DNA of 59,633 bases from a virus (Duplodnaviria; Caudoviricetes). The stretch lies in the IMG/VR virus record IMGVR_UViG_3300032318_000568, positions 1 through 59,633 of that record; one strand, written 5' to 3'. The position numbers and the translations under genes were made by a program. Position 1 is the first letter of the stretch. Every line of letters starts with the position of its first letter. This document shows, piece by piece, positions 53,308 through 53,885 of the stretch. A model generated the notes under the pieces. That model did not search any database. It saw only the letters and a program-made list of their open reading frames with translations, and had not been told where the DNA came from.

Positions 53308-53321
53308 ATGTGTTATAAATA
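53291..53321 (+). promoter_or_regulatory. Overlapping sigma70 and T4-late promoter for leader/tRNA transcript
   Basis: TTGACA-N17-TATAAA(TA): the -10 box is also an exact TATAAATA. Confidence 0.85.
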
Positions 53322-53344
53322 GAATACAATAAAGAGGAAAACAA

Positions 53345-53437
53345 ATGACGACTTCGTGCCTTTATAATATTAGTGAGCCTAAAACACAACGTCACCCATC
53401 ATGGGCGGGCGATGTGTGGGGTTTTGTGACGATGTAA
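53345..53437 (+). CDS. Putative attenuator leader peptide MTTSCLYNISEPKTQRHPSWAGDVWGFVTM
   Basis: SD GAGG; 30 codons covering all 20 amino acids; 3' end overlaps antiterminator arm. Confidence 0.8.
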   Translation: MTTSCLYNISEPKTQRHPSWAGDVWGFVTM

Positions 53438-53469
53438 CACGAAGTTACATTTTAAGTTTACAAAACCTC
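53418..53469 (+). promoter_or_regulatory. Antiterminator hairpin
   Basis: GGGGTTTTGTGA (53418-53429) pairs with TTACAAAACCTC (53458-53469), enclosing GATGTAAC/GTTACATT. Confidence 0.75.
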
Positions 53470-53496
53470 GAAGCGAAAGTTTCGGGGTTTCTTTTT
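53463..53496 (+). terminator. Intrinsic terminator (attenuator) before tRNA array
   Basis: AAACCTCGAAGC-GAAA-GTTTCGGGGTTT then CTTTTT. Confidence 0.88.
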
Positions 53497-53524: not shown

Positions 53525-53601
<77 letters not shown>

Positions 53602-53604
53602 AGT

Positions 53605-53703
53605 TAAGATAAGACGGTAGTGATATGCGAAATCACAAGAACATTCCGGTAATCGCATGCCGGCATTAAGTATCTCACATAAATCTGAGAGCGTCTTATC
53701 TTA
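53605..53703 (+). ncRNA. Unassigned structured RNA, four-way junction with kissing loops
   Basis: 12-bp closing stem; three hairpins; loops ATGCGA and TCGCAT are complementary. Confidence 0.65.
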
Positions 53704-53710
53704 TTAGTTC

Positions 53711-53785
53711 GGGCCTTTGATGATAGTGGTAGCATGTCGCCCTTGCACGGCGAAAGCCAGAGTTCGATTCTCTGAAGGTCCACCA
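53711..53785 (+). tRNA. tRNA-Ala(TGC)
   Basis: G3:U70 pair, loop CTTGCAC, CCA. Confidence 0.93.
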
Positions 53786-53792
53786 AGTGTGA

Positions 53793-53875
53793 TTGTAGGT
53801 GACTCGTTGTGGAACCTTCAAAGAATTTTTGAGTTGATGGGTTGTAGGTGACCTGAGTGCGCTAGGGAACCTTCA
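53793..53875 (+). repeat. Tandem bipartite motif TTGTAGGTGAC...GGAACCTTCA, two copies
   Basis: 53793-53803 / 53811-53820 and 53842-53852 / 53866-53875. Confidence 0.75.
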
Positions 53876-53885
53876 CTAATTCAAT

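What the first reader, a model, noticed from the sequence alone, without database searches (positions are those of the whole stretch)
53605..53703. Unassigned four-way-junction RNA with kissing loops inside the tRNA array
Seen: closing stem TAAGATAAGACG/CGTCTTATCTTA; hairpins GTGAT/ATCAC, CCGGT/GCCGG and TCTCA/TGAGA; loop 1 ATGCGA (53625-53630) is exactly complementary to loop 2 TCGCAT (53653-53658). It sits between tRNA-Pro and tRNA-Ala, so processing would release it. Inference: a stable phage small RNA such as a tRNA mimic, decoy or ribozyme.
Basis: partly seen in the sequence, partly recalled or inferred. Interest (0 to 1): 0.7.

Follow-up and report, generated by a model that had tools for sequence, protein, structure and literature searches.

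The report
New kissing-loop RNA in phage tRNA array
The 99-base stretch between two tRNA genes of this T4-like phage is a real copy of a rare folded RNA that matched no catalogued family, whose four stems and two mutually pairing loops are kept by evolution, but what it does is still unknown.

Summary
Window 53605-53703 folds as described: a 12-bp closing stem, three hairpins, and 6-nt complementary loops.

It is more than a chance fold. A covariance model built from it, together with motif scans, found 11 further distinct homologues in uncultured phage and metagenome contigs.
- 11 of the 12 lie among co-oriented tRNA genes.
- 10 of the 12 start 2-7 nt after a CCA end.

On the 12-sequence alignment, 90.6% of cells pair, against 34-48% when partners are slid. 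21 of 36 pairs change on both sides.

The loop-loop pairing is UGCGA:UCGCA in 10 of 12 sequences. It is fully swapped to AGGGC:GCCCU in one, and weakened to 4 bp in one.

No Rfam 15 family, GenBank phage or T4 rnaC/rnaD matches.

Best reading: a small RNA clamped shut at its ends, co-transcribed with the tRNAs and released by tRNA processing, which acts through a rigid conserved core. The function is inferred, not shown.

tRNA mimicry is not supported. A ribozyme role is untested.

Earlier notes from this scan describe similar kissing-loop RNAs in other phage tRNA arrays. None matched this family by sequence.

The parts
53525..53601 (+). tRNA-Pro(UGG) with encoded CCA. It is the upstream neighbour; the element's closing stem starts 3 nt after its CCA.
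   Evidence: ARAGORN; Rfam tRNA 65.5 bits
53605..53616 (+). P1 5' strand. P1 is the closing stem, 12 bp here and 8-14 bp across the family.
   Evidence: 10 of 12 P1 pairs change on both sides
53617..53619 (+). Junction GUA between P1 and H1, invariant in 12 of 12 sequences.
   Evidence: alignment A5
53620..53636 (+). Hairpin H1: stem 53620-24 with 53632-36, loop 53625-31 carrying UGCGA.
   Evidence: all 5 H1 pairs change on both sides
53626..53630 (+). Loop-1 half of the kissing helix (UGCGA). It pairs with 53653-53657.
   Evidence: swapped to AGGGC:GCCCU in L205
53637..53645 (+). J12 linker AAGAACAUU. GAA at 53639-41 is one strand of a possible sarcin-ricin-type module. A53643 and U53644 can pair with U53666 and A53665.
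   Evidence: motif sequences read in passages of PMC1865062; the 3D form is inferred
53646..53663 (+). Hairpin H2: 6-bp stem with a 6-nt loop.
   Evidence: 3 of 6 pairs change on both sides
53653..53657 (+). Loop-2 half of the kissing helix (UCGCA).
53664..53672 (+). J23 linker CAUUAAGUA, invariant in 12 of 12. AGUA lies at 53669-72.
   Evidence: the invariance is partly forced by the search patterns used
53673..53690 (+). Hairpin H3: a 5-bp base, minimal here. In relatives its tip is expanded by up to about 45 nt.
   Evidence: 3 of 5 pairs change on both sides
53691..53691 (+). Single unpaired G between H3 and P1. It is a purine (G or A) in all 12 sequences.
53692..53703 (+). P1 3' strand.
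53711..53785 (+). tRNA-Ala(UGC), the downstream neighbour, 7 nt after P1. Cleavage at its 5' end would set the element's 3' side.
   Evidence: ARAGORN; Rfam 53.6 bits; the processing step is inferred

Best explanation
The element is one copy of a rare, phage-borne family of about 100-140-nt structured RNAs that occupy a 'tRNA slot' in the tRNA arrays of T4-like uncultured phages.

Shown here:
- A four-way junction. It has a closing stem P1, a hairpin H1, a hairpin H2 probably lengthened by 2-3 pairs into invariant linkers, and a variable-length H3.
- The H1 loop pairs with the H2 loop.
- The RNA is read on the same strand as the tRNAs.

Inferred:
- It is transcribed with the neighbouring tRNAs.
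- Host tRNA-processing nucleases cut it free: an endonuclease or exonucleases just after the upstream CCA, and RNase P at the 5' end of the next tRNA.
- It survives as a discrete small RNA because P1 seals both ends.
- It then acts in trans through its rigid, sequence-invariant core. The linkers carry the AGUA/GAA signature of a sarcin-ricin-type docking module. The most likely role is a binding platform: a decoy, sponge or cofactor for a host or phage RNA-handling or defence protein.

The target is unknown.
For: Fold:
- MFE equals the described fold, z -4.2, 0 of 200 shuffles.
- The 8 other homologues folded (the first 9 members; the 3 found later were not folded) all keep the closing stem. 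2 of them, L166 and L205, also give a closed four-way junction. z ranges from -1.2 to -4.4.

Family:
- A single-sequence model found L130 at 62.5 bits among 80 loci.
- Motif scans plus model searches raised this to 12 distinct sequences.

Covariation on A5:
- 90.6% of 426 cells pair, against 34-48% when partners are slid.
- 21 of 36 pairs change on both sides.
- 0 of 500 shuffles reach the observed value on any of the 5 measures.

Strand:
- 14 G.U cells would be A.C mismatches on the other strand.
- The 11 members that lie in tRNA arrays are all co-oriented with the tRNAs (a truncated tRNA in L200).

Kissing helix:
- UGCGA:UCGCA in 10 of 12.
- L205 has AGGGC:GCCCU instead (p 0.007-0.022).
- L189 has a sixth G-C pair where the window has A-U.

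Slot:
- 10 of 12 start 2-7 nt after a CCA end belonging to different tRNAs: Pro, Trp, and an unannotated CAU tRNA-like gene.
- That spacing is the same as tRNA-tRNA spacing in this array, 0-16 nt.

Linkers:
- AGUA is present in 12 of 12. The opposite strand is GAA in 11 of 12 and AAA in one.
- Both combinations are sarcin-ricin sequences listed in passages of PMC1865062.

Precedent: T4 makes two small stable RNAs of unknown role from its tRNA region (record annotation; passages of PMC3014915 and PMC9697503).
Against: - No expression or end-mapping data exist.
- No partner protein is identified, and no gene is consistently adjacent.
- The closest relatives by helicase identity (72-77%; L004, L007, L010) lack the element. 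That includes a 110-kb record. So it is dispensable.
- Two members (L350, L205) follow ORFs rather than tRNAs.
- 6 of 12 are followed at once by a TTGAC[AT]-N17-TAnnnT promoter-like site. This fits a cis role at the end of a transcription unit equally well.
- Invariance of the linkers is partly forced by the search patterns.
- The alignment was fitted to the model.
- Several members are close relatives, so there are fewer independent events than cells.
- The kissing covariation rests on one full swap and one flanking pair. L166 carries an uncompensated loop-2 change that leaves 4 bp.
Confidence: 0.6

Rival explanations
1. Self-associating RNA. The H1 loop of one molecule pairs with the H2 loop of another ('hand in hand'), giving dimers or closed rings.
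For: - Covariation cannot tell pairing in cis from pairing in trans.
- If the linkers extend H2, then the H1 arm (3-6 bp) and the H2 arm (about 13 stacked layers) are very unequal, so the loops may not meet within one molecule. The support for an extended H2 is A-U and U-A invariant, U.C becoming G-C in 2 of 12, and the AGUA/GAA signature. The conclusion about reach is inference.
- In ROOL and GOLLD, which are phage-linked RNAs, kissing loops first found by covariation proved to be intermolecular bridges. GOLLD is cited there as occurring in tRNA arrays (passages and reference list of PMC12286853).
Against: No structural or biophysical data. The helical extension of H2 is not shown. A bend in the linkers would allow a cis contact.
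Confidence: 0.15
2. Cis-acting module at the end of a tRNA sub-operon. A stable 3' structure would protect or define the end of the last tRNA's transcript, or insulate it from the next promoter.
For: - 6 of 12 are followed within a few nt by a consensus-like sigma-70 promoter with a 17-nt spacer.
- 10 of 12 sit 2-7 nt after a CCA end.
- E. coli proline tRNAs get their 3' ends from one RNase E cut that removes the downstream structure (abstract seen in the listing of PMC5291269).
Against: - A plain hairpin would do this job. It does not explain the invariant junction, the kissing loops or the four arms.
- There is no U-tract terminator.
- In the window and in L361 the next tRNA follows after 7-10 nt with no promoter.
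- L350 lies between two ORFs.
Confidence: 0.15
3. A new self-cleaving ribozyme that cuts at its own 5' edge and so releases the upstream tRNA 3' end, a functional analogue of theta ribozymes.
For: - Small size, an invariant core and a pseudoknot.
- It starts 2-7 nt after a tRNA CCA in 10 of 12.
- Theta ribozymes set the precedent for ribozymes placed just 3' of phage tRNAs (passages of PMC10879173).
Against: - It hits no ribozyme family in Rfam.
- The spacing equals ordinary tRNA-tRNA spacing in the array.
- The upstream tRNAs encode CCA, whereas only 4.5% of theta-associated tRNAs do. By general knowledge of this chemistry, such a cut would leave a cyclic phosphate on the CCA end.
- L350 and L205 follow ORFs.
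Confidence: 0.06
4. A degenerate tRNA or tRNA mimic.
For: - Cloverleaf-like order of arms.
- 'UA-G' after the closing stem resembles tRNA positions 8-10 (recalled numbering).
- It occupies a tRNA slot.
Against: - No tRNA-model hit at E<=10 and no ARAGORN call.
- The closing stem is 8-14 bp rather than 7.
- The linkers are 9 nt where tRNA has 1 and 4-5.
- There is no T-loop.
- The middle hairpin has a 6-nt loop.
- There is no 3' CCA.
- The tertiary contact joins arms 1 and 2 rather than arms 1 and 3 (direct reading).
Confidence: 0.03
5. A chance fold, or a DNA-level inverted repeat with no RNA role.
For: Two other perfect 12-13-nt inverted repeats occur in the window by chance.
Against: - Twelve homologues with compensatory changes in four stems.
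- G.U pairs are specific to one strand.
Confidence: 0.01

Closest known systems
Bacteriophage T4 RNAC and RNAD (species 1 and 2 small stable RNAs, NC_000866 70908-71171)
   Same: Small non-tRNA RNAs encoded in the tRNA cluster of a T4-type phage, on the tRNA strand, with unknown function (record annotation; passages of PMC3014915 and PMC9697503).
   Different: - No homology: model R2 finds nothing in the T4 tRNA region.
- rnaC is 139 nt and folds with a tRNA-like T-arm hairpin. rnaD (119 nt) has no significant fold (z -0.8).
- The present family is a four-way junction with kissing loops.
Theta (minimal HDV-like) ribozymes of gut phages
   Same: Phage RNA modules placed directly 3' of tRNA genes and proposed to process the tRNA 3' trailer (passages of PMC10879173).
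   Different: - They have a nested double-pseudoknot fold, whereas here one stem encloses everything.
- Their tRNAs mostly lack an encoded CCA.
- No HDV-type Rfam hit.
- Catalysis is untested here.
GOLLD and ROOL RNAs
   Same: Phage-associated orphan RNAs. GOLLD occurs in tRNA arrays. Covarying kissing loops turned out to hold copies together (passages of PMC12286853).
   Different: - By recalled sizes, roughly four to eight times larger.
- No Rfam match to either.
- Oligomerisation of the present RNA is only a possibility.
phi29-family packaging RNA (pRNA)
   Same: A phage RNA of similar size with two loops complementary to each other that covary. In pRNA they pair between molecules (recalled knowledge).
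   Different: - Not in tRNA arrays.
- Belongs to small podoviruses and serves DNA packaging.
- No Rfam hit of any family on the element.
Sarcin-ricin (bulged-G, loop E) module
   Same: The two invariant linkers carry AGUA opposite GAA (AAA in one member), in antiparallel order. These are the sequences listed for this module (passages of PMC1865062; alignment).
   Different: It is a building block rather than an RNA family. Its non-Watson-Crick pairs cannot be tested here.

Membership tests
tRNA (Rfam RF00005; ARAGORN) | Detected by the tRNA covariance model or ARAGORN | tested here: not met
   No hit on 53602-53710 at E<=10, while the neighbouring tRNAs score 48-73 bits. ARAGORN calls the neighbours only.
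tRNA (Rfam RF00005; ARAGORN) | 7-bp acceptor stem, 7-nt anticodon loop, T-loop, 3' discriminator plus CCA | tested here: not met
   Direct reading: 8-14-bp closing stem, 6-nt middle loop, variable third arm, no CCA after P1.
HDV-like and theta ribozymes | Nested double pseudoknot with the cleavage site at the 5' end of P1 | tested here: not met
   The topology differs, with P1 enclosing three hairpins. No Rfam hit of any family on the element.
HDV-like and theta ribozymes | Self-cleavage | not testable with these tools
   Needs an in vitro transcript assay.
Any other family of Rfam 15 (4227 models; from recall these include hammerhead, twister, twister-sister, pistol, hatchet, pRNA, GOLLD, ROOL and YrlA) | cmscan match | tested here: not met
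   - No match overlaps the element at E<=10 in the window.
- None in L200, L205, L192 or L166.
- Weak YrlA hits there lie on tRNAs.
T4 rnaC / rnaD | Sequence or structure homology | tested here: not met
   R2 finds no hit in NC_000866 68500-74500. The folds differ.
Sarcin-ricin module (as a part of the RNA) | AGUA or GGUA opposite GAA or AAA on antiparallel strands | tested here: met
   AGUA in 12 of 12. GAA in 11 of 12, AAA in L130.
Sarcin-ricin module (as a part of the RNA) | Bulged G, trans U.A, sheared A.G geometry | not testable with these tools
   Needs probing or a solved structure.
The new family itself (this report) | P1, H1, H2 and H3 kept by compensatory change | tested here: met
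   21 of 36 pairs change on both sides. 0 of 500 shuffles reach the observed values.
The new family itself (this report) | H1-loop to H2-loop pairing kept by compensatory change | tested here: inconclusive
   - Invariant in 10 of 12.
- One full swap (L205, p 0.007-0.022).
- One flanking-pair swap (L189 against the window).
- One uncompensated loss (L166).

The most novel reading that the evidence does not exclude
The RNA is a new class of small self-cleaving ribozyme that cuts at its own 5' edge, a few nucleotides after the CCA of the preceding tRNA. That would give these phages a nuclease-independent way of freeing tRNA 3' ends: a different fold doing the job proposed for theta ribozymes.
Probability: 0.06. 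Interest if true: 0.9.

Novelty: new variant of a known kind. Interest (0 to 1): 0.58.

Why it matters
Phage tRNA clusters have been known since T4 to hold small stable RNAs whose purpose has never been found.

This family adds a well-defined member with several useful properties:
- a compact fold supported by covariation;
- an invariant core;
- a covarying loop-loop contact;
- a minimal 99-nt version suitable for probing, crystallography or cryo-EM.

Earlier notes from this scan report other, unrelated kissing-loop RNAs in phage tRNA arrays. If these hold up, tRNA arrays may be a general home for a class of phage RNAs. Such RNAs could be decoys for host tRNA-directed defences, processing aids or self-assembling particles. 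This small example would be a tractable entry point.

Tried and rejected
Searches that found no further members:
- Exact or near-exact search for the two hairpins in IMG/VR: 0 hits.
- blastn and nhmmer of the element against 80 helicase-anchored loci: only noise.
- 160 loci anchored on two neighbouring proteins: 1 true hit, L130.
- R2 on all 162 loci plus the T4 tRNA region: nothing new.
- Pattern CGGTAG..TGCGAA..ACATTCC: 20 stretches, 4 known and 16 chance.
- Pattern CGGTAG..GARAACATTCC: 104 stretches, 80 listed and 24 never seen. Of the 76 new loci, none was convincing. Two were marginal at 16.9 and 15.2 bits, the latter inside coding sequence.
- Bacterial and archaeal genome scan: 21 stretches, 0 hit by the model. 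Many lie in a conserved coding stretch that I read by eye as IMP dehydrogenase; that name is recalled, not tested.
- Metagenome scan: 8 of 24 stretches are true members.
- GenBank phages: only the tRNA-Pro part matched. The element alone gave only chance hits at E 3-4 in coding genes.

Readings rejected:
- tRNA, HDV-like ribozyme, T4 rnaC/rnaD and every other Rfam family, rejected as membership (see Membership tests).
- The minus-strand reading, because of the strand-specific G.U pairs.

Not attempted: a gene co-occurrence test for a protein partner. The records are 6-67% complete fragments that barely overlap.

Literature (six answered searches): no paper describing this family was found. A catalogue of 8,495 candidate structured RNAs from IMG/VR exists (PMC10690425, passages read).

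Full report
**What the window is.**
- The window is a 59.6-kb IMG/VR virus record, estimated about one third complete.
- It has T4-type genes: a Gp23 capsid protein, a scaffold protein, UvsW, a family-B DNA polymerase and a DnaB-type helicase.
- It carries 20 tRNA genes, all on the + strand, 18 of them between 52174 and 58497.
- Homing-endonuclease genes lie among them.

**The observation.**
- RNAfold returns exactly this four-way junction as both MFE and centroid: -30.8 kcal/mol, z -4.2, 0 of 200 shuffles.
- tRNA-Pro ends 3 nt before the closing stem, and tRNA-Ala starts 7 nt after it.
- The 12-bp stem alone is not remarkable. Two other perfect 12-13-nt inverted repeats within 150 nt occur in coding parts of the window.
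- The 6-nt complementarity of the two loops has p about 0.0014 on loop shuffling.
- No Rfam 15 family touches the element even at E<=10.

**Finding relatives.**
- Sequence searches of GenBank phages matched only the tRNA-Pro part or gave chance hits.
- I fetched 160 loci from IMG/VR around relatives of two neighbouring proteins.
- I built a covariance model (R1) from the single sequence and its fold.
- R1 found one clear hit, L130, at 62.5 bits. It lies between tRNA-Trp and tRNA-Ala.
- Strings shared by the two copies were used as scan patterns:

| Scan | Stretches returned | New loci model-searched | New true members |
|---|---|---|---|
| Four viral scans (checked) | 2, 5, 20 and 104 (80 of the last listed) | 2 + 3 + 16 + 76 = 97 | L164, L166, L167 |
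| One viral scan (checked) | 32 | 29 | L355, L350, L361 |
| Metagenome scan (checked) | 24 | 24 | 8 of 24 stretches (2 repeat L130 and L164; 2 are identical) |
| Bacterial/archaeal genome scan (checked) | 21 | 21 | 0 |

- The set is 12 distinct sequences from 14 non-duplicate contigs.
- Each of the four records that could be scanned whole holds one copy. A fifth, the 110-kb record of a closer relative, holds none.
- The three closest relatives by helicase identity (72-77%) lack the element, so it is an accessory element.

**The fold is under selection.**
- On the 12-row alignment A5, 90.6% of 426 cells form standard pairs. With partners slid by 1-3 columns the figure is 34-48%.
- 21 of 36 pairs change on both sides.
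- 0 of 500 shuffles reach the observed value on any of the five measures.

| Helix | Pairs changing on both sides |
|---|---|
| P1 | 10 of 12 |
| H1 | 5 of 5 |
| H2 | 3 of 6 |
| H3 | 3 of 5 |

- Fourteen cells are G.U, which would be mismatches on the other strand.
- The members that lie among tRNAs are all co-oriented with them. The RNA is therefore read in the tRNA sense.
- H3 is minimal in the window. In relatives its tip grows by up to about 45 nt.

**Caveats on the covariation.**
- The alignment was fitted to the model.
- Several rows are close relatives.
- Three of the four invariant linker strings were required by one or another scan pattern. The two reciprocal scans did show that each half of the linkers is conserved whenever the other half is present. 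They also uncovered a U-to-G change in two members.

**The loop-loop contact.**
- Ten of 12 sequences have UGCGA in loop 1 and UCGCA in loop 2.
- L205, the most divergent member, has AGGGC and GCCCU instead. This is a complete compensatory swap, with p 0.007-0.022 depending on how the loop is delimited.
- L189 has a sixth G-C pair where the window has A-U.
- L166 has an uncompensated change that leaves 4 bp.
- The pairing is therefore conserved and has limited but real covariation.
- It cannot be nested with H1 and H2, both of which covary, so it is a pseudoknot.
- In three members the pseudoknot-blind MFE uses it as an ordinary helix instead.

**The linkers.**
- Between H1 and H2 lies RAGAAC-AU(U/G). 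Between H2 and H3 lies CAU-UAAGUA.
- A-U and U-A next to H2 are invariant. The next position is U.C in 10 sequences and G-C in 2. This suggests that H2 continues into the linkers.
- The remaining nucleotides place AGUA opposite GAA (AAA in L130). These are two of the four sequences derived for the sarcin-ricin module (passages of PMC1865062).
- This is a sequence signature only; the geometry is inferred.
- If the H2 arm really is that long, the short H1 arm may not reach its loop within one molecule. That keeps an intermolecular contact open.

**Context.**
- Ten of 12 start 2-7 nt after a CCA end:
  - tRNA-Pro in the window;
  - tRNA-Trp in six;
  - a 5'-truncated tRNA-Trp in L200;
  - an unannotated tRNA-like gene with a CAU anticodon loop in L361;
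  - a 54-nt hairpin ending in CCA in L164.
- This spacing equals ordinary tRNA-tRNA spacing in the window (0-16 nt). The element sits in a tRNA slot.
- L350 lies between two small ORFs.
- L205 is on a GC-rich 1.3-kb contig without tRNAs.
- Six of 12 are followed at once by TTGAC[AT]-N17-TAnnnT. The window has no such site.

**How it most likely works.**
- Shown: a conserved, sense-strand, four-armed RNA with a loop-loop pseudoknot.
- Inferred from established tRNA processing: it is transcribed with its neighbours. It is freed by cuts after the upstream CCA and by RNase P at the next tRNA. For E. coli proline tRNAs the cut after CCA is a single RNase E cut (abstract in the listing of PMC5291269). 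P1 then protects it.
- Inferred from the invariant core: it acts through a fixed three-dimensional surface, most likely by binding a protein.
- Rivals: self-assembly through the loops; a cis role at the end of a tRNA transcription unit; a new ribozyme; a tRNA mimic. Only the last is largely excluded.

**Comparison with known RNAs.**
- The nearest in kind are T4 RNAC and RNAD, small RNAs from the T4 tRNA region with unknown roles. They are not homologous and fold differently.
- Theta ribozymes share the position 3' of phage tRNAs. They have an HDV-type fold and follow tRNAs without an encoded CCA.
- GOLLD and ROOL share the phage and tRNA-array niche and have covarying kissing loops that proved intermolecular. 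They are far larger.
- I found no paper describing this family in six answered searches.
- A catalogue of 8,495 candidate RNAs from IMG/VR (PMC10690425) may list it, but its supplements were closed.
- Earlier notes from this scan describe similar kissing-loop RNAs in other phage tRNA arrays, including a four-armed one after a tRNA-Pro. Look-ups by sequence found no match to this family, so whether any is related is unknown.

**Verdict.** A real, new, rare RNA family of a known general kind: orphan small RNAs of phage tRNA clusters. The architecture is well supported. The function is unknown.

Noticed in passing
window 53786-53885; also L007 10410-10445: The spacer between tRNA-Ala and tRNA-Tyr holds two copies of a short hairpin motif (GTAGGTGAC ... 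GGAACCTTCA). A third copy lies in the tRNA array of a related contig, so this is probably another small conserved RNA module.
   Followed up: partly
L010 17868-17945; L007 13730-13810; L024 5557-5635; L361 315-238 (minus strand): tRNA-sized genes with an acceptor-like stem, a CTCATAA anticodon-type loop and a 3' CCA, which ARAGORN does not call. They look like non-canonical tRNA(CAU) genes of these phage arrays.
   Followed up: no
L164 9840-9893: A 54-nt hairpin with an 8-bp stem, followed by A and then CCA, sits between tRNA-Trp and the element. It may be a minihelix or the remnant of a tRNA.
   Followed up: no
L200 1665-1789: A terminator-like hairpin with a T run is joined directly to a tRNA-Trp that lacks its 5' acceptor strand (Rfam model positions 8-63 only), downstream of tail-fibre-like ORFs. 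This looks like a recombination junction that kept the tRNA 3' part plus the element.
   Followed up: partly
L187, L192, L130, L233 (= L166), L189, L355: the first 30 nt after the element: A near-consensus sigma-70-type promoter (TTGAC[AT], 17-nt spacer, TAnnnT) starts within about 3 nt of the end of the closing stem in 6 of 12 members. In three of them (L233, L355, L187) it drives a small conserved ORF that begins MAK/MAR.
   Followed up: partly
window 53314-53490: A TATAAATA motif (T4 late-promoter consensus, recalled) at 53314-53321 precedes a 30-codon ORF with a strong ribosome-binding site (53346-53438). A clear intrinsic terminator follows at 53463-53490, just upstream of tRNA-Pro. No sigma-70-like promoter was found between that terminator and tRNA-Pro.
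   Followed up: no
L130 and L189, tip of H3: The long H3 versions share an inner hairpin (CCGC/GCGG against CCGA/UCGG, with an A-rich loop). L166, L355 and L130 have a symmetric AUAG/AUAG internal loop. These are optional sub-domains with their own covariation.
   Followed up: no
L233 1423-2031: ARAGORN reports a 'tmRNA*' that spans several ordinary tRNA genes. This is almost certainly a false call.
   Followed up: no
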